A stretch of 63,944 bases of DNA, filler included, from Craspedostauros australis (Eukaryota): the NCBI GenBank assembly GCA_030167865.1. It is 8 parts of 8 records of this genome, joined end to end, with 100 filler letters (N's around TTAATTAATTAA, not from the genome) between each part and the next. Parts side by side here need not be neighbours in the genome. Positions count along the whole stretch, not along the records: positions 60,913 to 62,409 come from JALAGF010004306.1; 7 more parts are not named here. One strand, 5' to 3'. The notes below the pieces were generated by a model that did not search any database, was not told the DNA's origin, and saw only the letters and a list, made by a program, of their open reading frames with translations. A program made the position numbers and the translations under genes. Positions within the stretch are counted from its first letter, which is position 1. Every line of letters begins with the position of its first letter. Of this stretch, positions 9,372 through 63,944 are shown piece by piece.

Positions 9372-12300
9372 ATGTCTCCAGCTCCAAGCAACAACGCCGG
9401 GTTGCCCCGCGATGGGCAGCTGGACAAATCGCTCAAGACCGTGTCACGCAGCGACGCCATCGACTACTCGGGTGATGATGGCAGCAACAGCAGCAGCAGC
9501 AGCAGCAGTGCCAGGGGTTTCCCAGCCACCTCGAGCACTGGTAACGGAACCACCATGTTCGGTGATCACGAAAGTCATCCTGAATTCAGCACCACCGCCG
9601 ACAGCAACGACGATGAAATGCAGGCCGTTCGCAATGTTGCACGAAAGGATACGTTCCAGGTCCGCTTGTGGCGTCTCGTGACAACAGCAGCATTGCTCGC
9701 AACTGGAGTCACTGTCACTTGGGCGACATACCACGTGAGTGCAGTTCCGATCTGATGCAGTGAAGGGATGAGCAACAAGGCAAGGGAGGAGATGGCAGTG
9801 GGTCTGTCTCTACCAGCGAAGCATCCTTCACACATCCAATATTGGTTTGACGGCGAGTGTGCGACTATGGTGCTCACATATCAGCGTTGCCCATCCGAAC
9901 ACCCTCCATATCTCTACCGCTCTGCTCATATCATCTGCACGGTACGATTTCATCTCACGTCTTGCCTCTCCCTTCTCGAACCATACCACTCGTACGAGCC
10001 TGTTGCGATTGCGATTTTCTTGCCCTGATCTTCCTTGCCTTCGTCCTTCTGCACATTTGGTTGCCTTTCTTGCTTCCGTCACCTCTCAATCAGTTCCTCG
10101 ATCAACAACAAACAGACACCTTCGAGACAGCGGTAAGTGTGTCGTATCTGGCGGCAGCAAAAGAGGCCAACACTTGTATCGCAGAATACCTAGCGCACAG
10201 CACTGCATCATCATAATGATACCGCTCCGTTCAATTGTCCTTCCCACTCGGCTCGGATGGTACTCAGTAGGGCTCTACGATACTCTATTGTGTACGGACA
10301 CTTGCTCTTAGCACCCACGAGCTCATGGATCTCCTCCAACCTCTGCCTGGATAGCGCATCTCCTTCGCGTTCTAACACTCGTTCACTCTCCGTCTCTCAC
10401 TACTCGGCCAAACACAATCTCCAATGCCCCATACAATTCACACCTCCATACGGCCACGTATCGATACATTCCATACATTCCATACAATCCATACACCAGT
10501 TTGAGCAATTCGCTAGAACTGTTGGAGATGCCGCTGTTGACCAACAGCTCAACCTCCGGCATGCCTACATTGGTCTTGCTAACCACGTGTCGAACTACGT
10601 CGTGAGCACAAACGCAAGTTGGCCGGACGTCACCATCCCGTTCTTCCGAACAACCGCAGAAACGGTCCTGGAGTACTCCGGCACAGAGATTGTGACTCTG
10701 CTTCACATGGTAAAAAACGAAACATACGATGCCTGGGTGGAGCATAGCATCAAGGACCATGGTGCCGTCGTGATGAATGCCAACCTCGAAGAGAATGGCA
10801 ACCTCGACGACTTCACCCCGGCAAACTTTCATCCCTACGTGGCCAAGGTCGACCGCTCTGCGGGCGGTTTCGTGCCGGATTACCCTGGACGAGAACGTAA
10901 GTACGTGCTCTGGGAGTATGCGCCGGCACCATTCGATTTCAGCTTCCTCAACTGGAATGTGATGTCCGCAGAATACCTCGGGACTCCCCTGGTGGGGCGC
11001 AGTCTGGTTGAGCTGAGAACTGAAACTCTGTTCCATTTTGCGGGCACATTCAACAGCTTCGCATTTAAGAAGGAAGAGCATGAAGCGATGCACGCCAGAT
11101 TGCCCGGTTCCAAGGTCAGCCACCCGCACACCTTCGCCTATCACCCAGTGCACGAGGTCGCTTCGGATCCAGACTCCGAAATCGTCGGTATTTTGATTGG
11201 TGTAACAGCATGGGACACTGCCTTGAACCAGCTGCTGCCCAATAACGTGCAGGGAATCACAGCCGTGATTTCCAACACCTGCAACCAAACGTTCACATAC
11301 GAGATTCATGGAGAGTATGCCTACTTCCAGGGATACGGTAAGTGCGAACATCAAATCGCTGGTGTTTCAGCTGGTGTCTTTACACGTTGAAATCAATCTC
11401 TTCGGCCGGCTTCATTTGCGTATGCTTGATTCGCGTACCTGGTAGCCTGCTTTGCTCACCTCAATGTACTATCTACTTGCATCATGTGCTTGTGCGTACT
11501 ATATCTGCTCAACTCCATCCATCCGTCCATTCGAAATGTAATCTCTCCCCATGCATTCATGCCGGTATCTACTCTCTGCTGACGACCTCACTAAATCGAC
11601 CAAATCGAACAAACTACTATTGTACCAGTCGACACACATGATACGAAGTACGACAAATACGAGAAGGTGCGCCTGCTCACAACGTCCGATCATCCGGACT
11701 TCGCCAAGACGCCCGGGCATTGCATCTACACGATGCATATCTACCCATCCAGGCAATTCGAGGAGGCGTACGACACCTTCCTCCCCGAAATATTCGCGAT
11801 CGTCATCTTCTGCGCATTCGTCGCGGTGATTGCGATCTTCTTCGTCTACGACATGTTTGTCAACCACCGCAACGAGAAGCTCATCGAGAATGCCGCGCGC
11901 TCCAATGTCATCGTGTCAACGCTCTTCCCCAGTGCTATTCGAGACCGGCTCATTTCCGACAAGAATACGCACGGCGACACAGCGAACATACGCATCTCCA
12001 ACCTCAAGAGCTTCTTGCATGGAGAGGCGGATGCAAACGCAGGAGCGGGGCAGCCGTTGGCCGACCTGTTCCTCGAGACGACGGTCCTATTTGCTGATAT
12101 TTCCGGCTTTACTGCGTGGAGTTCAGTTCGAGGTGAGTGTGGCAGCACATGGGAACAACAACCGTGACGAAGGGATTGTGGTCATTTTGTATGCAACACT
12201 TCAACTGAGGCGATCTATCCTTTCACTAACCTTCGCATTCATTCCATCATCATCATCACCACCATCGTCATCACCACCATCGTCATCATCATCATGCCCG

Positions 12301-14567
12301 TACACACAAAATCAACATCAAACTTCAACTACAAAAGAGCCGACGCAAGTCTTCTCATTGCTCGAAACCGTTTTCTCTCAGTTTGATCAAATCGCCAAAG
12401 CCAGGCGAGTGTTCAAGGTTGAGACTGTTGGGGACTGTTACGTGGCCGCCACCGGTATTCCGGAACCAAAGAAGGATCACGCCACCATCATGGTCCGTTT
12501 CGCACATGATATCCTCAAGCGGATGGATGTCCTTGTGAAGGGGTTGGAAATCACGCACGGTCCGGACACAGCCGATCTCTCCCTGCGCATCGGCATGCAC
12601 TCAGGACCGGTCACGGCCGGAGTGCTGCGCGGGGAACGTGCACGATTTCAGCTGTTTGGCGACACCATGAACACCGCATCTCGCATCGAAAACACCGGCG
12701 AGATTGGCCGCATCCATGTATCGAGAGAAACGGCGGAATGCGTGCGTCGGTGCGGCAAAGGATACTGGCTGGTGAAACGAGAGGAGAAGGTATACGCCAA
12801 AGGCAAGGGCGATATGCAAACGTGAGTTCGTGCGCTACTACTGTGACTGCCTTGAGTTCGCTCGAGAACTTTGAGGGTGCAGCAGATTACCAGCAACGCA
12901 CTGTCATATTCTATCGCACATCGTATATGCTTCTGATACTGATCCTGATACTGAAATTCGCACGTTCATTTCGCCTCCCCATCGCGGGAGACTCTCGCAC
13001 CCCTTTCCAATCTCACCCATTCATCTATCTATCCATCAATCCATCCATCCATCGACACATGCTAAAATTTCACACTGTGCATCGGGATCATCTCTTCTCT
13101 CAATCACACTCTCGCTACATACGTATATCTCTCAGATACTGGATTGCTCGCTCCCTTTCGCGTCCCAAAAACGGTTCCGTGACTGGTAGCTGCAGCAGTG
13201 ACATGGATGATGCCCACGATTCATTGGACAATGCAGAAGACCTTTCCTTGCTCGGCATCCAGCAACGAGTTAAATCCAGCGGCCTGGATGAAAAACAGCT
13301 GCGGCTGGTGGATTGGAATGTGGTGATGCTCACCCAGATCCTGCAACAAGTCGTCGCTCACAGACAAGCAGTCGGCCCCCAAGCACCTGCCATTTCAAGA
13401 AAGAAGGCGGACGAAGGCTCGCAGATTCAGCCGGCTATATTCATTCCGCTGGATGAAGTCTGCGAGATCGTCCATCTTCCAGAATTCAATCAGAAGGCCG
13501 CCCACGGCTCGGCATCGGCCAAGGGTGCCGCTCCAGCCATCGACCAGAGAGTTGTCGACCAGCTGCGATCCTTCGTGGAGGCCATTGCGGCCATGTACCA
13601 GGACAATCCCTTTCACAACTTCGAGCACGCATCGCACGTGACCATGTCCGTCATCAAGCTGCTTGCCCGCATCGTCGCCCCGTCCGATCTCGACTTCGCC
13701 GACAAAGGCAACGCAGCAGTCCCTGTTAGCAGCGGCAACAGCATCGCCAGTGGTAAAAGCAGCGCCATCAGCGGCAACATGAGCGCAAAGCACGTGGCTG
13801 CATCGCTGCACGACCACACCTACGGCATCACGTCGGATCCGCTGACGCAGTTCGCATGCGCATTCTCCGCCATGATTCATGACGTCGATCATCCAGGCGT
13901 CCCGAATGCCCAACTGATCAAGGAAAAGACGCGCGTTGCGGCCATCTACGACAACCGATCCGTTGCCGAACAGAACTCTTTGGTCCTGGCTTGGGATTTG
14001 TTCACATCCGACCAGTACGCCGACTTCCGCAACTGCCTTTGCGGCAACGAACAAGATCTGCAGCGCTTCCGACAGCTCGTTGTCAACGGAGTCATGGCGA
14101 CAGACATCGTGGACAAGGATCTGAAGCAGCTGAGGAACGGCCGCTGGGACAAGGCCTTCTCGGACAACACTTTCGACGAATCCACCAAGGACGCCACCGA
14201 CCGCAAGGCGACCATCGTCATCGAGCACTTGATTCAAGCCTCGGACGTTGCTCACACAATGCAGCACTGGCACGTGTACCGCAAGTGGAACGAGCGCTTC
14301 TTCAAGGAATGCTACGCGGCCTACCGCAGCGGCAGATCTGAAACGAACCCGGCCGACGGCTGGTACAAAGGAGAGATGGGCTTCTTCGACTTCTACATCA
14401 TCCCGTTGGCGAAGAAGCTGAAGGAATGCGGCGTGTTCGGCAAGTCCAGCGATGAATACTTGAACTACGCCATCGCCAACCGCGAGGAATGGGAACGCAG
14501 GGGGGAAGAGCTGGTGGCGACGATGACCGATGCGATGGATCAAAGCATTCGCAGCAACGAAGCATGA
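9372..14567 (+). CDS. Receptor-type guanylate cyclase-phosphodiesterase fusion (1219 aa); exons 9372-9734, 10094-10132, 10500-11337, 11629-12132, 12338-12821, 13136-14567
   Basis: All five introns are GT-AG and phase-consistent (3660 nt). Two TM segments flank a sensor region. Class III cyclase motifs LFADISGFT, KVETVGDCY, RIGMHSGPVTAGV, FQLFGDTMNTASR; class I PDE motifs PFHNFEH, IHDVDHPG, MATDI, QASDVAH. Confidence 0.95.
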
Positions 14568-15620
14568 GGAACACCTCGCTTCAGAGTAGGCCAGCCGTGC
14601 CGCGGAAGAAGAACTCGTAGCATGTGGCATGGTGCATGCTCTCATCGGATTCAAGTGCTTTAATATTTGGCAACTATTATATTACATTAGATTGCGTGCG
14701 AGTAGTTCGTCGGGAGCCATCTCCGCTCAGGAAGGAGAGTACTCTATCTCGTTTGGTGTTGGTATCATTGCCGATGATGTATTTATTATATGAAAGCCAA
14801 TCACGAAGCTCAGTGATCGAGGATCACGAATCAATCCAAATGGCGACACGTGATCAACAATCACGCCATCGAGTCTGCACTCAATCGTACTCTCGAGCTC
14901 GTGGAGCGCAGGAGTGAGCCAGCCCTTCCTCCGTTGCCCAAATCTAACACTCTGCTGGTGGAGCACGAAAGCTTCGAGGATACTCGTAAGTACCCGATCA
15001 AGACCCACGCGATCTGTACTAGTAGCCTCACATTTTACTATTGCACATGAGGAAGACAAAGAATTGCAATCTTCAATCATATTCTATATATAATAATATT
15101 CTACAATAGTTTGGATCATTGGTTACTTGTGAGAAGGTGTTCATTCGATTCGCTCAGAGGGAGGAACCGAGGCGGGGCCAGCGTTGCCAGGAACTTCGAC
15201 TGCCCGCCATCTATTGGTCTGATACATCAGTCAACACCGACACATCCTCGTCGTCGTCATCGCCACCGCCATTGTTACTGCCACTGCCTTCTCCACTTGT
15301 AGCCTTGCTCCGATCACTTGACATAAACGACGCAGCACCAGTACCTCCCTTGGATCTGTTGGGCCTACTGTGGGTATGCGAGTGTCAGGAATCGGGTGTT
15401 CTGAAACACGGAATTGACGCACCTCCCAAGAGTCAGGAGTTGAATATTATGATATTATACATTACCGCAACCCTACGTTTGATCTTTGTGACAGAAAACA
15501 ATGTGAGCTGCGCGTGTCTTGCGGTGGAGAACACCATGTGCCGAATGCAAACCGGACTGTAATGTTTGTGACCTCAATGCAGGAATGTGAATCACATATG
15601 TATGTTGCAGGGGGCAGGGA

Positions 15621-27249: not shown

Positions 27250-27349
27250 NNNNNNNNNNNNNNNNNNNNNNNNNNNNNNNNNNNNNNNNNNNNTTAATTA
27301 ATTAANNNNNNNNNNNNNNNNNNNNNNNNNNNNNNNNNNNNNNNNNNNN
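27250..27349. other. Artificial contig linker
   Basis: N44-TTAATTAATTAA-N44. Confidence 0.98.
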
Positions 27350-30300
27350 CCCCTGCGTTCCCATTCCTCGCGGTTGGCGATGGCGTAGTTCAAGTATTCA
27401 TCGCTGGACTTGCCGAACACGCCGCATTCCTTCAGCTTCTTCGCCAACGGGATGATGTAGAAGTCGAAGAAGCCCATCTCTCCTTTGTACCAGCCGTCGG
27501 CCGGGTTCGTTTCAGATCTGCCGCTGCGGTAGGCCGCGTAGCATTCCTTGAAGAAGCGCTCGTTCCACTTGCGGTACACGTGCCAGTGCTGCATTGTGTG
27601 AGCAACGTCCGAGGCTTGAATCAAGTGCTCGATGACGATGGTCGCCTTGCGGTCGGTGGCGTCCTTGGTGGATTCGTCGAAAGTGTTGTCCGAGAAGGCC
27701 TTGTCCCAGCGGCCGTTCCTCAGCTGCTTCAGATCCTTGTCCACGATGTCTGTCGCCATGACTCCGTTGACAACGAGCTGTCGGAAGCGCTGCAGATCTT
27801 GTTCGTTGCCGCAAAGGCAGTTGCGGAAGTCGGCGTACTGGTCGGATGTGAACAAATCCCAAGCCAGGACCAAAGAGTTCTGTTCGGCAACGGATCGGTT
27901 GTCGTAGATGGCCGCAACGCGCGTCTTTTCCTTGATCAGTTGGGCATTCGGGACGCCTGGATGATCGACGTCATGAATCATGGCGGAGAATGCGCATGCG
28001 AACTGCGTCAGCGGATCCGACGTGATGCCGTAGGTGTGGTCGTGCAGCGATGCAGCCACGTGCTTTGCGCTCATGTTGCCGCTGATGGCGCTGCTTTTAC
28101 CACTGGCGATGCTGTTGCCGCTGCTAACAGGGACTGCTGCGTTGCCTTTGTCGGCGAAGTCGAGATCGGACGGGGCGACGATGCGGGCAAGCAGCTTGAT
28201 GACGGACATGGTCACGTGCGATGCGTGCTCGAAGTTGTGAAAGGGATTGTCCTGGTACATGGCCGCAATGGCCTCCACGAAGGATCGCAGCTGGTCGACA
28301 ACTCTCTGGTCGATGGCTGGAGCGGCACCCTTGGCCGATGCCGAGCCGTGGGCGGCCTTCTGATTGAATTCTGGAAGATGGACGATCTCGCAGACTTCAT
28401 CCAGCGGAATGAATATAGCCGGCTGAATCTGCGAGCCTTCGTCCGCCTTCTTTCTTGAAATGGCAGGTGCTTGGGGGCCGACTGCTTGTCTGTGAGCGAC
28501 GACTTGTTGCAGGATCTGGGTGAGCATCACCACATTCCAATCCACCAGCCGCAGCTGTTTTTCATCCAGGCCGCTGGATTTAACTCGTTGCTGGATGCCG
28601 AGCAAGGAAAGGTCTTCTGCATTGTCCAATGAATCGTGGGCATCATCCATGTCACTGCTGCAGCTACCAGTCACGGAACCGTTTTTGGGACGCGAAAGGG
28701 AGCGAGCAATCCAGTATCTGAGAGATATACGTATGTAGCGAGAGTGTGATTGAGAGAAGAGATGATCCCGATGCACAGTGTGAAATTTTAGCATGTGTCG
28801 ATGGATGGATGGATTGATGGATAGATAGATGAATGGGTGAGATTGGAAAGGGGTGCGAGAGTCTCCCGCGATGGGGAGGCGAAATGAACGTGCGAATTTC
28901 AGTATCAGGATCAGTATCAGAAGCATATACGATGTGCGATAGAATATGACAGTGCGTTGCTGGTAATCTGCTGCACCCTCAAAGTTCTCGAGCGAACTCA
29001 AGGCAGTCACAGTAGTAGCGCACGAACTCACGTTTGCATATCGCCCTTGCCTTTGGCGTATACCTTCTCCTCTCGTTTCACCAGCCAGTATCCTTTGCCG
29101 CACCGACGCACGCATTCCGCCGTTTCTCTCGATACATGGATGCGGCCAATCTCGCCGGTGTTTTCGATGCGAGATGCGGTGTTCATGGTGTCGCCAAACA
29201 GCTGAAATCGTGCACGTTCCCCGCGCAGCACTCCGGCCGTGACCGGTCCTGAGTGCATGCCGATGCGCAGGGAGAGATCGGCTGTGTCCGGACCGTGCGT
29301 GATTTCCAACCCCTTCACAAGGACATCCATCCGCTTGAGGATATCATGTGCGAAACGGACCATGATGGTGGCGTGATCCTTCTTTGGTTCCGGAATACCG
29401 GTGGCGGCCACGTAACAGTCCCCAACAGTCTCAACCTTGAACACTCGCCTGGCTTTGGCGATTTGATCAAACTGAGAGAAAACGGTTTCGAGCAATGAGA
29501 AGACTTGCGTCGGCTCTTTTGTAGTTGAAGTTTGATGTTGATTTTGTGTGTACGGGCATGATGATGATGACGATGGTGGTGATGACGATGGTGGTGATGA
29601 TGATGATGGAATGAATGCGAAGGTTAGTGAAAGGATAGATCGCCTCAGTTGAAGTGTTGCATACAAAATGACCACAATCCCTTCGTCACGGTTGTTGTTC
29701 CCATGTGCTGCCACACTCACCTCGAACTGAACTCCACGCAGTAAAGCCGGAAATATCAGCAAATAGGACCGTCGTCTCGAGGAACAGGTCGGCCAACGGC
29801 TGCCCCGCTCCTGCGTTTGCATCCGCCTCTCCATGCAAGAAGCTCTTGAGGTTGGAGATGCGTATGTTCGCTGTGTCGCCGTGCGTATTCTTGTCGGAAA
29901 TGAGCCGGTCTCGAATAGCACTGGGGAAGAGCGTTGACACGATGACATTGGAGCGCGCGGCATTCTCGATGAGCTTCTCGTTGCGGTGGTTGACAAACAT
30001 GTCGTAGACGAAGAAGATCGCAATCACCGCGACGAATGCGCAGAAGATGACGATCGCGAATATTTCGGGGAGGAAGGTGTCGTACGCCTCCTCGAATTGC
30101 CTGGATGGGTAGATATGCATCGTGTAGATGCAATGCCCGGGCGTCTTGGCGAAGTCCGGATGATCGGACGTTGTGAGCAGGCGCACCTTCTCGTATTTGT
30201 CGTACTTCGTATCATGTGTGTCGACTGGTACAATAGTAGTTTGTTCGATTTGGTCGATTTAGTGAGGTCGTCAGCAGAGAGTAGATACCGGCATGAATGC

Positions 30301-32481
30301 ATGGGGAGAGATTACATTTCGAATGGACGGATGGATGGAGTTGAGCAGATATAGTACGCACAAGCACATGATGCAAGTAGATAGTACATTGAGGTGAGCA
30401 AAGCAGGCTACCAGGTACGCGAATCAAGCATACGCAAATGAAGCCGGCCGAAGAGATTGATTTCAACGTGTAAAGACACCAGCTGAAACACCAGCGATTT
30501 GATGTTCGCACTTACCGTATCCCTGGAAGTAGGCATACTCTCCATGAATCTCGTATGTGAACGTTTGGTTGCAGGTGTTGGAAATCACGGCTGTGATTCC
30601 CTGCACGTTATTGGGCAGCAGCTGGTTCAAGGCAGTGTCCCATGCTGTTACACCAATCAAAATACCGACGATTTCGGAGTCTGGATCCGAAGCGACCTCG
30701 TGCACTGGGTGATAGGCGAAGGTGTGCGGGTGGCTGACCTTGGAACCGGGCAATCTGGCGTGCATCGCTTCATGCTCTTCCTTCTTAAATGCGAAGCTGT
30801 TGAATGTGCCCGCAAAATGGAACAGAGTTTCAGTTCTCAGCTCAACCAGACTGCGCCCCACCAGGGGAGTCCCGAGGTATTCTGCGGACATCACATTCCA
30901 GTTGAGGAAGCTGAAATCGAATGGTGCCGGCGCATACTCCCAGAGCACGTACTTACGTTCTCGTCCAGGGTAATCCGGCACGAAACCGCCCGCAGAGCGG
31001 TCGACCTTGGCCACGTAGGGATGAAAGTTTGCCGGGGTGAAGTCGTCGAGGTTGCCATTCTCTTCGAGGTTGGCATTCATCACGACGGCACCATGGTCCT
31101 TGATGCTATGCTCCACCCAGGCATCGTATGTTTCGTTTTTTACCATGTGAAGCAGAGTCACAATCTCTGTGCCGGAGTACTCCAGGACCGTTTCTGCGGT
31201 TGTTCGGAAGAACGGGATGGTGACGTCCGGCCAACTTGCGTTTGTGCTCACGACGTAGTTCGACACGTGGTTAGCAAGACCAATGTAGGCATGCCGGAGG
31301 TTGAGCTGTTGGTCAACAGCGGCATCTCCAACAGTTCTAGCGAATTGCTCAAACTGGTGTATGGATTGTATGGAATGTATGGAATGTATCGATACGTGGC
31401 CGTATGGAGGTGTGAATTGTATGGGGCATTGGAGATTGTGTTTGGCCGAGTAGTGAGAGACGGAGAGTGAACGAGTGTTAGAACGCGAAGGAGATGCGCT
31501 ATCCAGGCAGAGGTTGGAGGAGATCCATGAGCTCGTGGGTGCTAAGAGCAAGTGTCCGTACACAATAGAGTATCGTAGAGCCCTACTGAGTACCATCCGA
31601 GCCGAGTGGGAAGGACAATTGAACGGAGCGGTATCATTATGATGATGCAGTGCTGTGCGCTAGGTATTCTGCGATACAAGTGTTGGCCTCTTTTGCTGCC
31701 GCCAGATACGACACACTTACCGCTGTCTCGAAGGTGTCTGTTTGTTGTTGATCGAGGAACTGATTGAGAGGTGACGGAAGCAAGAAAGGCAACCAAATGT
31801 GCAGAAGGACGAAGGCAAGGAAGATCAGGGCAAGAAAATCGCAATCGCAACAGGCTCGTACGAGTGGTATGGTTCGAGAAGGGAGAGGCAAGACGTGAGA
31901 TGAAATCGTACCGTGCAGATGATATGAGCAGAGCGGTAGAGATATGGAGGGTGTTCGGATGGGCAACGCTGATATGTGAGCACCATAGTCGCACACTCGC
32001 CGTCAAACCAATATTGGATGTGTGAAGGATGCTTCGCTGGTAGAGACAGACCCACTGCCATCTCCTCCCTTGCCTTGTTGCTCATCCCTTCACTGCATCA
32101 GATCGGAACTGCACTCACGTGGTATGTCGCCCAAGTGACAGTGACTCCAGTTGCGAGCAATGCTGCTGTTGTCACGAGACGCCACAAGCGGACCTGGAAC
32201 GTATCCTTTCGTGCAACATTGCGAACGGCCTGCATTTCATCGTCGTTGCTGTCGGCGGTGGTGCTGAATTCAGGATGACTTTCGTGATCACCGAACATGG
32301 TGGTTCCGTTACCAGTGCTCGAGGTGGCTGGGAAACCCCTGGCACTGCTGCTGCTGCTGCTGCTGTTGCTGCCATCATCACCCGAGTAGTCGATGGCGTC
32401 GCTGCGTGACACGGTCTTGAGCGATTTGTCCAGCTGCCCATCGCGGGGCAACCCGGCGTTGTTGCTTGGAGCTGGAGACAT
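27350..32481 (-). CDS. Second (redundant) copy of the GC-PDE gene, 3'-truncated by the contig end
   Basis: Same exons mirrored; the last ~20 codons are cut off by the linker. Confidence 0.9.
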
Positions 32482-57811: not shown

Positions 57812-58573
57812 TCAGTTGAATGTGACCTTGCAGTCGCTCACGTTGGCCAAGCGAGGAGATCCGCTGTTCTGCATCATGAGACACCAAGCGTCCTCCAACA
57901 TGGACAACACGTCATCATCCATCGGAGGTGGGCTCTTGTTCAGCAATCCAGACTCGGACTCGGTCTCCTTCTCAGCCTTCTTGTTGATCTTCTTCTTGCC
58001 CTTCTTGCCGTCGGCCTGAGCGGAAGCATCCGCGCCAAGGTACCAATCATCGTCATCGTTGTAGGCACTGAAGCAGTACTCGCACACATAGTCCATGGTG
58101 GCCGTGAGGTAGAGCTCGCGACCGTATGGGAAAGAGAGAGAACCAGAGGCAGACGCTTTGGGAGCGTCAACAGTGAAGCCTGCGCCGTCATCACCATCTT
58201 CGACGGTCTCGGACTGGATGGAGACGCCATCGACGGCCATCTTGTCTCCCAAAGGCTTCACCTGGTTGTAGGTCGACACGAAGGTGGCCTGGATGACGCG
58301 GTTGTCTCTTGGAGTGAGGGTTCCCTCGATGTTGGAGATGGAGGAGGTGATGCTGGACTCGTACATCTTGCCGAAGGTCAGGTCTTCGAGGCTCATCTTC
58401 TTGTCAGCGTGCTTCTTGGTGGCATGCTTCTTGGTGGCGGTGAGCTTGTCAGCGATGACTTGGAGGGTGTTGGTGTCGTCTTGGACGATGCGGAGGCTTG
58501 CGGCACTGGCCATGGTGACATGCTCAGCGGCGGCGAGGAGGGTGATGCTGGTGATGGCGGTGGAGAACTTCAT
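57812..58573 (-). CDS. Secreted protein (253 aa) with Lys clusters and a 4-Cys C-terminal region
   Basis: Signal peptide MKFSTAITSITLLAAA; KKHATKKHADKK and KKGKKKINKK; CEYC..DDDDW and WC...SGSPRLANVSDCKVTF; strongly biased codon usage. Confidence 0.85.
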   Translation of the reverse strand: MKFSTAITSITLLAAAEHVTMASAASLRIVQDDTNTLQVIADKLTATKKHATKKHADKKMSLEDLTFGKMYESSITSSISNIEGTLTPRDNRVIQATFVSTYNQVKPLGDKMAVDGVSIQSETVEDGDDGAGFTVDAPKASASGSLSFPYGRELYLTATMDYVCEYCFSAYNDDDDWYLGADASAQADGKKGKKKINKKAEKETESESGLLNKSPPPMDDDVLSMLEDAWCLMMQNSGSPRLANVSDCKVTFN

Positions 58574-58983: not shown

Positions 58984-59287
58984 GGGTGACAGGTGTCATC
59001 GAGGGCGATTCGGAACGCAAGTCGGTCGGCGGTCCAGTAGGCAATGCGGTTGGCGCGGTCGTTTCTGCAGCAGCCGGGTTTTCAGTGGGTGGCACTTGTT
59101 TGTTCTTGTTGCCCTTGTTGGTCTTCGTGTCGCCGTCGGCGTCCCTGAGGATGCGGGTCTTCTTCATCGTCGTATGGAGTTGCTCGGTTGGACCCACGGG
59201 AGTCCTGTTGCCGCGGAGCACGGCGTCGACCGTTGCCATGTCGGCGAGAGCGAGAAAGACGACAAAAGATGCCTTGGTGTAGATCAT
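58984..59287 (-). CDS. Secreted Pro/Thr-rich protein, 3'-truncated
   Basis: Signal MIYTKASFVVFLALA, then LRG, an RIL (RXL) site, KTNKGNKNK and PT/PS repeats running into the linker. Confidence 0.8.
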
Positions 59288-59571
59288 GGTTGTTCGGTAC
59301 TTGTTGGTTGGTGATTGATGGTTCAGGGTTGATCGTTGTTTGTTTGGTGTGATTGGTTGACAACTGGGATGGATTTATGAGATGAAGAGTTTGATTTGTT
59401 GGTTGTTCGGACCATTTTGTTTGCGTGTTCGATGTTGTGCATGAGGCAACATGGTACAGGAATGGCATGATGTCTAGGAGGCCATAGCTCCTCTGCAGCT
59501 GGGGCCTTCACAAACTCGAACCTTCACAACTGGCGACATCTGTCAGGAATCACAGGTACGATGAAACCGTG

Positions 59572-59736
59572 TGAAGAACAGCAGCATGCCAGTGGCACGC
59601 CACATGAAGATTGGCAGCATGTCAGTGGCACACCACATGAAGATCAGCATCGTGTCAGTGGCACACCACATGCAGATCAGCAACATATCAGTGGCACACC
59701 AGGTGAAGAACAGCAACATGTCAGTGGCACACCAGG
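59572..59736 (+). repeat. 33-bp minisatellite, 5 units
   Basis: Consensus approximately TGAAGA(A/T)CAGCA(G/A)CATGTCAGTGGCACACCA(CA/GG); units start at 59572, 59605, 59638, 59671 and 59704. Confidence 0.9.
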
Positions 59737-60812
59737 TGAAGAGAATTGTGCGAGTGGGACAATGAATGCAAAGTGTGAATACAAAAATGAAGAAGGGAAT
59801 TTGTGCGACGAGATGGAAATCTCGGTTTGCCATCCAGAACAAAAACTGATAACAACAACAAAACAAAATTAAAGTTGAAGTTCACCTAGTGGCTATTGGC
59901 TAATTTCCGGTTTTTTGGCACTTTTTGGTAATTATTGGTAACCATTGGCATATCACCGACGGCACAAGCTGCCATTCGATGAGTTGATGGCCGTTGCCTG
60001 GCATCTTCACATCATTAGAAAGAGGAGAGTGAGAGCTCTCTATTGATGTGTTCATTGTAGGCAAACGGTCTCCGCTTCCTGTTCATCTCGATGCCTCTTT
60101 TTACCCTTTATCGCCCTTTTTCATACGGACGACGTACGGATGTGATTTCGGAATTTCGTCGTTGGTAACCATTGGTAACCGCGTAGAGTCTACGACGTTC
60201 TGGTACAATAATTTGTTGCTTCTTCGTCCAATCTCGACCAACCGTCTTCCAAAGACCCGCATCCAATTCTGTTTCGTCTATTACTCAAGTGGATGGCATA
60301 GCTGAATCCACAACTTCATTCTGCTTTGGGTGGTGTGTTGGTCAGTGGTCCGGAATGCGTTTGTGTGCTGCTGTGGGTGTATGAAGTCAGTCACTAATGC
60401 TCGTGACAGCCATGATCATCGATCCGTGAACGCACAAAAGCTCGCGCCAAAAATTATCGTGCGTTTTTACGTGTTGTAGATTCGTACTGTGCTGCTCACC
60501 TGAGTCTCTCTACTTGATGCAAGGTTGTGCCTCGCGCTGATGTCGGATCATCGTGCCGTTTCTTTCAATCAACGCAGTAGCCTCTCTTGCACCTCCCCAT
60601 CTCGCCTTGGTCTTCGAATTTCGCTTCCTCCAAAGATACACCAACTTTCCTCCACTTCAGTACTCCTCCAAGTATCACAACCAACTTGCCCACCACCAAC
60701 ATTCCTCTTCGCCATGCCTCTCAAAGTGGGTTCTCACGTCTTCTCCAAGTTCAATCATCCCTCCCATGGATCTCATGGTGAGAAGGTCCCTCTCCGCGGC
60801 GTCGTGCTGAAG

Positions 60813-60912
60813 NNNNNNNNNNNNNNNNNNNNNNNNNNNNNNNNNNNNNNNNNNNNTTAATTAATTAANNNNNNNNNNNNNNNNNNNNNNNNNNNNNNNN
60901 NNNNNNNNNNNN
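60813..60912. other. Artificial contig linker
   Basis: N44-TTAATTAATTAA-N44. Confidence 0.98.
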
Positions 60913-61835
60913 ATGTTCGACGGAGAAGTCGATGGTCGCAGGGAGGAAGTCGGATCGTTGGATGGGGCTGCGGACTCTGTCGGTGCTATCGAAATGGATG
61001 GAGCCAACGTCGTTGGCTGTCCGCTAGGCACGGCACTCTCAAGTACAGACGGCGTTTGAGTGGGAGCCGAAGTTGGCGTTGAAGCTAGCGTTGCGGTAGG
61101 CGTCGAGGTTGGCGCCATGTTCATATCCATGCCCTTGAGGCTCTTTGGAGACTTCGTGCTCTTTAGAGATTTCTCGCTCTTGCTTGATTTGGAAGTCTCA
61201 GGATCCAGGAGTGCCCCGTTCAGGCCCTTTGGCCCCTTCGGCACCTTCGGCGATTTGATACTCTTGCTGGTTTTTACAGAACTTGTTCCCATCCCTTCAG
61301 AGGCCATGGCAACAGAACCGACACCCCCAACGACGATCGCGTTGGATTCTGTTGTCGTCGTGCCAATCGCATTTGAATTGACTCCGCTCGATTTGACGTC
61401 CTTGCTGATCTTGCTCTTCTTGCTGCTCTGAGGCTCATCCTTTCTTTGGATTGGTATGGTGACCGGATCGGGCGAGTCAGCGGAAGCGGGATCTTCCGAC
61501 TTGGATGACTTGGAGCTGTCTGTGTTCGACTTTGAAGCTGTCGACTTGTCATTGCTCTTGCTTTCGTCTGACTTGGCGAATCTTCGCCCACTGTGCCGTG
61601 TCGGTTCGGCAACGTGCAGCTGCCTCTTCTTGCGGTCGCCGGCAGAGAAGAGTTGGCGCATCCTGTTTGATTTTTCATAGTTTTCGATTCTACTGCTTCT
61701 GCTGTTGCTGGTGATGTGCCCGAATGCATCAATGGTGAACTCATCATCGAGAGCCTGGGTCGTCGTGGCGAGGTGAGCCACAAGAACGGCGTTGAGGACC
61801 CTGGCCCCTGTGCGAGAATTGGCGGACGTCTTCAT
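60913..61835 (-). CDS. Silaffin-like secreted KxxK/Ser-rich protein with a PT/PS tail, 3'-truncated
   Basis: N-terminal hydrophobic stretch ending TQA-L; two RQL motifs; runs such as KTSKSIKSPKVPKGPKG and KSSKSEKSLKSTKSPKSLKG; then APTSTPT...APS repeats. Confidence 0.8.
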
Positions 61836-62811: not shown

Positions 62812-62976
62812 TCGATGATCTATTGTATGATCATCCATTGTCCACTATCAATACTCACCATGAATATATTCTACAATGCACATACATACATCTGTATATG
62901 TAATGCACATGCACATATATACACATCTGCACACGTAATGCAAATACAATGCACACTGCACACTGCACCAACACAG

Positions 62977-63944
62977 TCCGCCGCACGCGAATCCGCAACC
63001 ATGATGATGATGTTGATGACGAAAACTTCGCCTTCCGCCAGCGCATCCTCAAGGCGGAGAAGGCCAACAAGGGCGATAACGTGGATTCGGATGACACTGC
63101 AACGCCGACCGCGATTCCGACATCGATGCCGACATCGATGCCAACATCCGCACCGACGGAGACCATGGTGGACCTGGAGGCTCGTCTCTCACAGCTTCAG
63201 GGCGATCTCACCCAGTGTCTCACGGATCTCGCCGCGCTGCTGAGCCAAGCTGCCGGAAGCGGCACGGCCGTCACGTTGACGCCAACGGTTGACGGTGTCA
63301 CCTTCGCCGACGACATCAACGGACAGATCGCGGAGGTCAGTGTGGAGCTGGAGTACTGCTTGCAGGAGAAGGCGCGCATCATGGCCATCCTCGGACGAAC
63401 CGAGATACCAACATCATCTCCGACATCGGCACCGACCGATATGCCGACATCAGCTCCGACATCGGCGCCTACATCGGCACCGACTGCGCAGCCAAACAGC
63501 AATCCGACATCGGCACCGACTTCCGCACCAACATCAGCACCGACGTCGGCACCGACTGCGCGGCCAAACAGCAATCCGACATCCGCGCCTACAGCGGCTC
63601 CGACTGCGCAACCGACTTCCGCACCCACATCGGCACCGACTTCAGCCCCGACATCAGCCCCGACTTCAGCCCCGACATCGGCACCTACGTCGGCCCCGAC
63701 TGCGCGGCCAAACGGCAATCCGACTTCCGCACCGACATCGGCTCCGACTTCGGCACCGACTTCAGCCCCGACATCCGCACCGACATCGGCTCCGACATCG
63801 GCACCGACATCCGCGCCGACGGAGACCATGGTGGACCTGGAGGCTCGTCTATCACAGCTCCAGGGCGATCTCACCCAGTGTCTCACGGATCTCGCCGTGG
63901 CGCTAAGCCAAGCTGCCCAAAGCGGCACGGCCGTCACGTTGACG
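62977..63944 (+). CDS. Internal exon of a modular mucin-like extracellular protein (PTSA repeats plus a repeated helical Cys domain), partial
   Basis: After the ACACAG acceptor the frame is open to the window end: ...RQRILKAEKANKG...PTSMPTSAPT-ETMVDLEARLSQLQGDLTQCLTDL...ELEYCLQEKARIMAILG-(PTSA)n-ETMVDLEARLSQLQGDLTQCLTDL. The direct repeat offset is 663 nt. Confidence 0.85.

What the first reader, a model, noticed from the sequence alone, without database searches (positions are those of the whole stretch)
60913..61835. Candidate new silaffin-like biosilica protein with RXL sites and period-3 lysines
Seen: a probable signal peptide, two RQL motifs (RMRQL, RKKRQL), about 15 overlapping KxxK units in Ser-rich blocks, then a PT/PS stalk. 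Known: RXL processing sites and KxxK/pentalysine clusters mark diatom silaffins and cingulins and direct them to silica. Inference: this is a frustule-associated precursor; its C-terminal part is lost at the contig break.
Basis: partly seen in the sequence, partly recalled or inferred. Interest (0 to 1): 0.72.

Follow-up and report, generated by a model that had tools for sequence, protein, structure and literature searches.

The report
Silica-tagged stalked beta-helix diatom protein
This is the front half of a long diatom protein that is likely secreted: a lysine tag of the kind known to send proteins to the glass cell wall, a long proline-serine-threonine stalk and a cysteine-rich head predicted to be a beta-helix; it belongs to a large unstudied family in this genome that likely coats the cell wall, and it is not a classic silaffin.

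Summary
In detail: 15 KxxK units (0 of 20,000 shuffles reach 15), two RQL sites, five matches to the published pentalysine pattern, then a PT/PS stalk. The 'lost' C-terminus lies on two other contigs of the same genome. The full reading frame is 783 or 828 aa and ends in a 299-aa, 26-cysteine head. That head is predicted to be a beta-solenoid (pLDDT 89, handedness unresolved) and is related to Pfam DUF7640, though below its cut-off. The genome holds at least 130 matches to this head, plus a second DUF7640 subfamily. In 45 of 68 complete paralogues and 17 of 17 second-subfamily members, paired KxxK units lie in front of the head, mostly just behind an RxL site. So this is not a peptide-releasing silaffin or a cingulin. 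It is the most lysine-rich sampled member of an expanded tag-stalk-head family of a raphid pennate diatom. Best reading: a processed glycoprotein held on the frustule by its lysine tag and displaying the head, like the mucin-like coat protein CaFAP1. A silica-embedded TpSil1-like role stays open. Localisation, expression and modification of this gene are untested.

The parts
60913..61835 (-). 5' part (307 codons) of a single open frame of 783 aa (via G000:C4031) or 828 aa (via G000:C4030); the rest of the stalk and the 299-aa Cys-rich head lie beyond the gap (head = G000:C4031:2933-3829, minus strand)
61752..61835 (-). probable signal peptide, residues 1-28 (predicted from hydropathy and paralogue leaders)
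61650..61664 (-). first RxL site, RMRQL
61617..61634 (-). second RxL site, RKKRQL; it also fits a furin/kexin-type R-x-K-R site (recalled consensus)
61572..61586 (-). RRFAK, resembling the RRAK/RRTK motif that precedes the lysine block in paralogues and in Stauroneis relatives
61392..61511 (-). first KxxK unit (109-112) and first period-3 run (139-148)
61227..61274 (-). six-lysine period-3 run, residues 188-203, two pentalysine-pattern matches
61134..61190 (-). seven-lysine period-3 run, residues 216-234, three pentalysine-pattern matches
60915..61127 (-). start of the Pro/Ser/Thr stalk (whole stalk 248 or 293 aa, 62-65% P+S+T, no lysine; the two forms differ by one 45-aa repeat and a few substitutions)
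60813..60912 (.). assembly linker (N run with a fixed 12-mer) joining separate contigs; not a biological break
58984..59287 (-). 5' part of a second family member on the neighbouring contig (leader, RIL site, short KxxK, PT stalk); contig C6346 carries a closely matching frame on into a DUF7640-like head

Best explanation
The gene encodes a 783/828-residue tag-stalk-head protein that is likely secreted, likely trimmed at its RxL sites, and likely held on the silica cell wall by its lysine block while a likely O-glycosylated stalk holds out a predicted disulfide-knit beta-solenoid head as part of a surface coat. Shown: the order leader, RxL sites, Ser/Lys block (net +12), lysine-free stalk, acidic 26-Cys head (net -24), no transmembrane-like stretch, and a large family with the same order. 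Predicted: the solenoid fold. Inferred steps: (1) ER import; (2) cleavage at RxL, which removes the propeptide and leaves the lysine block at the mature N-terminus; (3) modification of KxxK lysines and serines as in silaffins, and routing to or binding of the frustule; (4) glycosylation of the stalk; (5) the head acts as a non-enzymatic binding or packing module, varied across many paralogues.
For: Full frame recovered from two contigs at 100% identity. Head model pLDDT 88.6, pTM 0.90, with a helical cap and about eight rungs; a second-subfamily model is also a regular solenoid (pLDDT 81.1). Only cysteines are invariant among 50 heads, which argues against an active site. Family: 130 matches to the head (129 of 375 candidates scored) and 173 matches to PF24646 (150 of 369 scored), mostly on other contigs. 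Of 68 distinct complete paralogues, 60 have RxL before the head and 45 have two KxxK within 10 residues (shuffle mean 2.0, maximum 8); mean lysines in 30 residues after the RxL 3.8, before 1.7 (58 members). Second subfamily: 17 of 17 paired KxxK, 13 of 17 pentalysine pattern, 16 of 17 RxL. 19 of 27 genomic RxL-K-S-x-K-S-x-K pattern matches are in solenoid proteins. A Stauroneis relative (P0004) has the same layout with 7 KxxK. 0 of 57 complete paralogues have a C-terminal hydrophobic anchor. Precedent: CaFAP1 is a cell-surface glycoprotein of alternating PTS-rich and Cys-rich domains, 40% PTSG (bioRxiv 10.1101/2023.03.06.531300, passages); 35 two-headed paralogues are 34-44% PTSG.
Against: No localisation, proteomic or expression data for this gene. 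In the query's own subfamily only 4 of 68 paralogues have the full pentalysine pattern and the short single-head clade has 0-1 KxxK, so the tag is not required in all members. The Seminavis relative P0020 has no KxxK before its head. [quoted passage not shown] The targeting data come from centric Thalassiosirales. TpSil1 also combines KxxK-type motifs, PT-type motifs and a folded domain and is silica-embedded, so the layout does not separate surface coat from silica-embedded. Homology to CaFAP1 could not be tested, and that paper calls CaFAP1 exclusive to its species. The query is a long-branch singleton and may differ in role from the expanded clades.
Confidence: 0.5

Rival explanations
1. 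It is a TpSil1-like integral biosilica protein. The pentalysine clusters would send it to the silica deposition vesicle, its modified lysines would take part in silica deposition, and the solenoid head would be part of the organic scaffold buried in the wall.
For: Five pentalysine-pattern matches, 7 KS.KS and 4 SKS.K; these are enriched about 20-fold or more in silica-extracted proteins. TpSil1 has PT-type motifs, KSGK-type motifs and a chitin-binding domain and stays with purified silica. 14 silaffin-like and KXXK proteins of T. pseudonana have PT repeats (PMC5501833, passages). The query has more KxxK (15) than any sampled relative (maximum 11).
Against: No RxL after residue 73, so no silaffin-type peptides. 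A family of many recently multiplied, stalk-length-variable paralogues looks more like a surface family than like a morphogen (inference). One DUF7640 relative looks bacterial and one is fused to C-type lectin domains, so the head is not silica-specific.
Confidence: 0.27
2. It is a mucilage, trail or biofilm protein. The lysine block would bind acidic polysaccharide or foreign surfaces rather than the cell's own silica, and the head would act as an adhesin or lectin.
For: PTS-rich and Cys-rich modules are typical of adhesive-trail proteins of a raphid pennate. The second-subfamily model aligns best with adhesin, tailspike and polysaccharide-binding beta-helices (Z 14-15.5, rmsd 3.2-3.7, about 250-260 residues). 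No membrane anchor.
Against: The eight trail proteins listed in that paper are described with CAA, vWA, DUF4215 and other repeats; none is described with RxL or lysine clusters (0 occurrences of 'RXL' or 'lysine' in its main text; supplements closed). The RxL-then-KxxK order matches silica-protein grammar. A shared fold shows no function.
Confidence: 0.17
3. It is a secreted beta-helix enzyme (polysaccharide lyase or acyltransferase type) on a linker, or an unexpressed gene copy.
For: Fold matches include hexapeptide acyltransferases (Z about 10, rmsd 3.4-3.8) and lyases.
Against: Only Cys is invariant; the only other nearly invariant residues are one Thr and one Ser. No enzyme family in Pfam and no PDB sequence match below E 0.4. 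The frame is intact on both contigs. A paralogue (L112) is 99.5% identical over 405 aa to a transcriptome-derived protein.
Confidence: 0.06

Closest known systems
Silaffin TpSil1 and silaffin-like KXXK/PT proteins of Thalassiosira pseudonana
   Same: Signal peptide, RXL sites, pentalysine clusters, PT-type repeats and, in TpSil1, one folded domain.
   Different: The folded part here is a 299-aa Cys solenoid, not a chitin-binding domain; only 2 of 15 KxxK have S/G-only spacers; the gene belongs to a large homologous family, whereas silaffins show no similarity to each other; the host is a raphid pennate.
Silaffin Sil1p of Cylindrotheca fusiformis
   Same: RXL after the signal sequence; Ser/Lys-rich KXXK units (PMC4557024, passages).
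   Different: Sil1p has RRIL/RRNL after each repeat and yields short peptides; here no RxL follows residue 73.
CaFAP1 of Craspedostauros australis (mucin-like frustule coat glycoprotein)
   Same: Secreted; PTS-rich and Cys-rich modules; similar PTSG content (46% in the query, 34-44% in two-headed paralogues, 40% in CaFAP1).
   Different: The query has one stalk and one head and a strong lysine tag, which the passages I saw do not mention for CaFAP1. Whether CaFAP1's Cys domains are of this family is unknown: its paper was not held.
Pfam DUF7640 (PF24646)
   Same: Same C-x5-C repeat; 41 of 43 relatives hit it at E <= 0.01, 33 above the cut-off; Atlas first hit is a DUF7640 cluster, mostly Bacillariophyta (score 0.90).
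   Different: The query scores 16-20 bits against a cut-off of 28.1; it has longer, irregular rungs and an 86-residue helical cap. No function or paper was found for the family.
Cingulins
   Same: Signal peptide, KXXK clusters, RXL.
   Different: No Trp- or Tyr-rich blocks: 0 W and 1 Y in the first 307 residues.

Membership tests
Silaffins | N-terminal ER signal peptide | tested here: inconclusive
   Hydropathy 2.06 over residues 13-23 and similar leaders in paralogues; no signal-peptide predictor on hand.
Silaffins | KXXK motifs and at least one pentalysine cluster | tested here: met
   15 KxxK; 5 matches to K..K..K.{1,2}K..K (pattern).
Silaffins | Region of 100 aa with at least 18% Ser and 10% Lys (screen threshold recalled from Scheffel 2011, not read here) | tested here: met
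   163 such windows, starting at residues 33 to 197.
Silaffins (Sil1p type) | RXL sites flanking the lysine repeats so that short peptides are released | tested here: not met
   All RxL sites lie at or before residue 73; none between or after the lysine runs.
Silaffins | No significant sequence similarity to other proteins (as stated) | tested here: not met
   The head has 130 genomic matches and 43 database relatives.
Silaffins | Phosphorylation and polyamine or methyl modification of lysines | not testable with these tools
   Needs mass spectrometry.
Silaffins | Tight association with silica, released by NH4F or HF | not testable with these tools
   Needs extraction or GFP tagging.
Cingulins | Trp- or Tyr-rich regions alternating with KXXK regions | tested here: not met
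   0 W, 1 Y in residues 1-307; stalk and head have one lysine in all.
DUF7640 (PF24646) | Score at or above the Pfam cut-off of 28.1 bits | tested here: not met
   16.4 bits for the head, 19.7 for the long frame. Distant kinship is supported by 33 of 43 relatives above the cut-off and a shared cap motif with the second subfamily.
CaFAP1-type mucin-like coat proteins | PTS-rich and Cys-rich modules behind a signal peptide | tested here: met
   One stalk and one head in the query; 37 of 68 paralogues have two or more head matches.
CaFAP1-type mucin-like coat proteins | Sequence homology to CaFAP1 | not testable with these tools
   Source papers not held; bioRxiv supplements closed; no hit named CaFAP1.
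CaFAP1-type mucin-like coat proteins | Glycosylated and located on the cell surface | not testable with these tools
   Needs experiment; the query has no N-glycosylation sequon, so glycosylation would be O-linked.
Solved beta-helix families (hexapeptide acyltransferases, pectate-lyase-like, pertactin-like) | Same fold and handedness | tested here: inconclusive
   The query model fits left-handed helices, the second-subfamily model right-handed ones; no Foldseek match at E <= 0.001.

The most novel reading that the evidence does not exclude
Raphid pennates of this lineage have bolted the silaffin address (RxL followed by a pentalysine cluster) onto a disulfide-knit beta-solenoid and multiplied it into a family of well over 50 genes. 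These are the missing ordered proteins of the pennate frustule: rigid rods of variable rung number and stalk length, anchored in or laid down with the silica, that act as rulers or tiles for wall pattern and as a variable outer display. DUF7640 would then be a frustule protein domain.
Probability: 0.2. Interest if true: 0.8.

Novelty: new variant of a known kind. Interest (0 to 1): 0.52.

Why it matters
Silica-targeting lysine clusters were worked out in a centric diatom and mostly on disordered proteins. Here the same tag sits, family-wide, in front of a folded domain of unknown function in a raphid pennate. If the tag works, it gives DUF7640 a location and a role, shows that the address is used across diatom lineages as a modular anchor, and supplies a natural series (0 to 15 KxxK units, with or without stalk, one or two heads) to test what decides between surface coat and silica-embedded fate. 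If it is only another coat mucin, the family is still an undescribed large expansion relevant to fouling and cell-surface recognition.

Tried and rejected
Literature: 0 papers for 'DUF7640'; 0 for diatom + beta-helix + cysteine + frustule + AlphaFold since 2021; 1 irrelevant paper for Craspedostauros + cysteine-rich + gene family + diatom; 0 for 'MMETSP1442'. The library lacks most subscription journals. The CaFAP1 paper, the journal version of the trail-protein paper and the pentalysine paper were not held; bioRxiv supplements are closed and may hold the CaFAP1 sequence. The Seminavis gene id was not in 3 supplements of PMC7335047. Word-index protein searches were weak: none at 1053-3005 aa, 2 hits at 117-1052 aa, none with the head region; these blanks say little. 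Sequencing runs: no RNA holder listed; one run of guessed type gave one 498-base contig with 15 differences over the end of the head, which is no evidence on expression. Foldseek found no match at E <= 0.001 in PDB or viral models. Left-handedness of the solenoid, suggested, was dropped after the second model came out right-handed. A resemblance to YadA heads and beetle antifreeze repeats is recalled only; neither was in the 50 listed rows of either search. A trimer prediction was not run. The bacterial-looking relative P0023 had no confirmed locus in genome contigs. A search of G000 with the lysine block found only this gene's three contigs. Earlier findings of the scan: none. Rows dropped before counts: 19 of 115 contigs were not refetched (edge-cut, duplicate or already held); 5'-open frames and 17 frames without a signal-like start were left out, and 72 kept frames collapsed to 68, 3 of 20 loci were left out (no Met before the head, or 5'-open; two of them visibly carry the tag). 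The second-subfamily sample was hand-picked from the top-scoring contigs. The background set (37 other frames of 300 aa or more: 0 pentalysine, 6 paired KxxK) includes possible non-coding frames.

Full report
Observation. The window is eight contigs joined by a fixed linker. The finding lies on a 1,497-base contig. A minus-strand frame starts at ATG 61835 and runs 307 codons to the gap without a stop. It holds 15 KxxK units, against shuffle means of 2.6 to 4.5 and 0 of 20,000 shuffles reaching 15 in each of four tests. Both RQL sites are present. Five overlapping stretches match the published pentalysine pattern. The leader is hydrophobic over residues 13-23.

The missing half. A DNA search of G000 found the same sequence at 100% identity on contigs C4031 and C4030, which continue past the gap. 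The single open frame is 783 or 828 aa. The two forms differ by one 45-aa stalk repeat and a few nearby substitutions, and may be alleles or assembly variants; C84 and C6626 repeat the 3' part. Layout: leader 1-28; propeptide 29-73 with both RQL sites; Ser/Lys block 74-236 (23% S, 15% K, net +12); stalk 237-484 (65% P+S+T, no lysine); head 485-783 (26 Cys, net -24). No RxL follows residue 73, and there is no transmembrane-like stretch.

The head. It is built of repeats with a hydrophobic strand followed by C-x5-C. Pfam gives a weak DUF7640 match (16-20 bits, cut-off 28.1). Of 43 database relatives, 41 hit DUF7640 and 33 pass the cut-off; the Atlas points to the same family. Source-named relatives are from Stauroneis constricta, Seminavis robusta and the transcriptome MMETSP1442. 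One G000 paralogue is 99.5% identical to an MMETSP1442 protein. I recall that record as Craspedostauros australis; no call confirmed this. The organism is thus likely a raphid pennate diatom. AlphaFold2 on a 50-sequence alignment gives a confident model (pLDDT 88.6, pTM 0.90): an 86-residue helical cap and about eight solenoid rungs. Its best low-rmsd matches are left-handed beta-helices (Z about 10), but a model from the second subfamily matches right-handed ones (Z 14-15.5). The solenoid is therefore likely, its handedness open. Only cysteines are invariant, so a shared active site is unlikely.

The family. The head finds 130 matches in G000 (a lower bound). PF24646 finds 173 matches, on about 50 listed contigs that are mostly different ones, and none in 14 control genomes. 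The assembly is redundant, so gene numbers are lower: 68 distinct complete frames of the first subfamily form 66 groups at 95% and 51 at 90% head identity. Of these 68, 60 have RxL before the head, 45 have two KxxK within 10 residues (shuffle mean 2.0), and 4 have the full pentalysine pattern. Most have a PT stalk; 37 have two or more head matches. In the second subfamily the tag is stronger and sits directly before a long 17-residue-repeat solenoid, mostly with no stalk: 17 of 17 paired KxxK, 13 of 17 pentalysine, 16 of 17 RxL, usually RQL followed at once by K-S-x-K. A genome-wide pattern for RxL-K-S-x-K-S-x-K gave 27 matches (9 for the reversed control); 19 are in solenoid proteins, 7 in four other genes and 1 is spurious. 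So the tag is a module used mostly, but not only, by this family. The query has the most KxxK units of the sampled members and is a long-branch singleton in a FastTree of 135 heads, with no close paralogue (best 39% identity). The Stauroneis protein P0004 has the same leader-tag-stalk-head order.

Mechanism. From the papers (passages or named sections only): pentalysine clusters direct GFP to the frustule in T. pseudonana (PMC9650480, passages and first part of the introduction); the pattern is in 29% of silica-associated proteins and 1.5% of background, and KS.KS and SKS.K are over 20-fold enriched while plain K..K is only three-fold (bioRxiv 10.1101/2021.09.18.460806, passages and parts 3-4 of the text); RXL is thought to be a general diatom processing site, also in frustulins (PMC4557024, passages); PT repeats occur in many silaffin-like proteins (PMC5501833, passages). 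CaFAP1 is a cell-surface glycoprotein of alternating PTS and Cys modules that is shed into trails (bioRxiv 10.1101/2023.03.06.531300, passages and one section; PMC11420354, passages). PMC4220933 (passages) describes a lysine- and tyrosine-rich wall protein in another pennate. Putting these together, I infer that cleavage at RxL exposes a basic, Ser-rich N-terminus that routes or binds the protein to the negatively charged wall, that the stalk is O-glycosylated and extended, and that the acidic head faces outward. I give this coat reading 0.50, a TpSil1-like silica-embedded role 0.27, a mucilage or adhesin role 0.17, and an enzyme or silent copy 0.06. Every functional step is inferred.

Against my reading. 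The tag is weak or absent in part of the family and in the Seminavis relative. Most proteins with the pentalysine pattern are not known silica proteins (arithmetic). TpSil1 shows that the same layout can be silica-embedded. Expression of this gene was not shown, and homology to CaFAP1 could not be tested.

Comparison and novelty. It works like a silaffin in its address and like a mucin in its body. It fails membership of Sil1p-type silaffins (no flanking RxL, large homologous family) and of cingulins (no W/Y blocks), and it falls below the DUF7640 cut-off while being kin to it. I found no paper on DUF7640 or on a lysine-tagged solenoid family in diatoms, within a library that lacks most subscription journals. 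I rate it a new variant of a known kind. The single gene is a modest find; the family-wide pairing of a silica address with a folded solenoid is the part worth following. Interest 0.52.

Noticed in passing
window 58984-59287 (-): 5' end of a second member of the same family; 40 related 5' regions in G000, many on contigs that carry the head.
   Followed up: yes
L148-L167, e.g. L179:928-2694 (+): Second DUF7640 subfamily: long propeptide, RQL, pentalysine-type run, then 10 to 36 solenoid repeats, mostly without stalk. Repeat number varies widely between copies.
   Followed up: partly
L193:1426-2427 (+), G000:C6034: Signal-like leader, RVL, KxxK run, then low-complexity Lys/Met/Pro/Ser repeats to the end with no folded domain: a better classic silaffin candidate than the finding.
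   Followed up: no
L171:490-1803 (+), G000:C1309: Likely secreted protein with several RxL sites, a duplicated acidic domain and KxxK blocks; no Pfam match.
   Followed up: no
window 62904-63944 (+): PT-repeat frame (PF04886, E 2e-20) with two copies of a helical-looking unit flanking the repeats; open at the window end.
   Followed up: no
window 57815-58573 (-): Frame with a signal-like leader and two lysine patches; no Pfam match above cut-off.
   Followed up: no
window 10257-14645 and 27298-31596: Two contigs carry frames of the same lengths in opposite orientation (377, 322, 311, 609/605 aa), likely allelic contigs; the assembly is redundant.
   Followed up: no
P0023 (database protein): Bacterial-looking DUF7640 protein (109.9 bits) with a C-terminal tail resembling a wall-sorting signal, on a 36-kb metagenome contig; no confirmed match in genome contigs.
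   Followed up: partly
P0009 (database protein): Two C-type lectin domains fused in front of a DUF7640 head.
   Followed up: no
L004:1331-2167 (-): The gene downstream of the finding encodes a PEP mutase/isocitrate lyase family protein (PF13714, E 2e-31); no link apparent.
   Followed up: no
window 59543-59760: Short tandem repeat of about 36 bases upstream of the second family member (seen).
   Followed up: no
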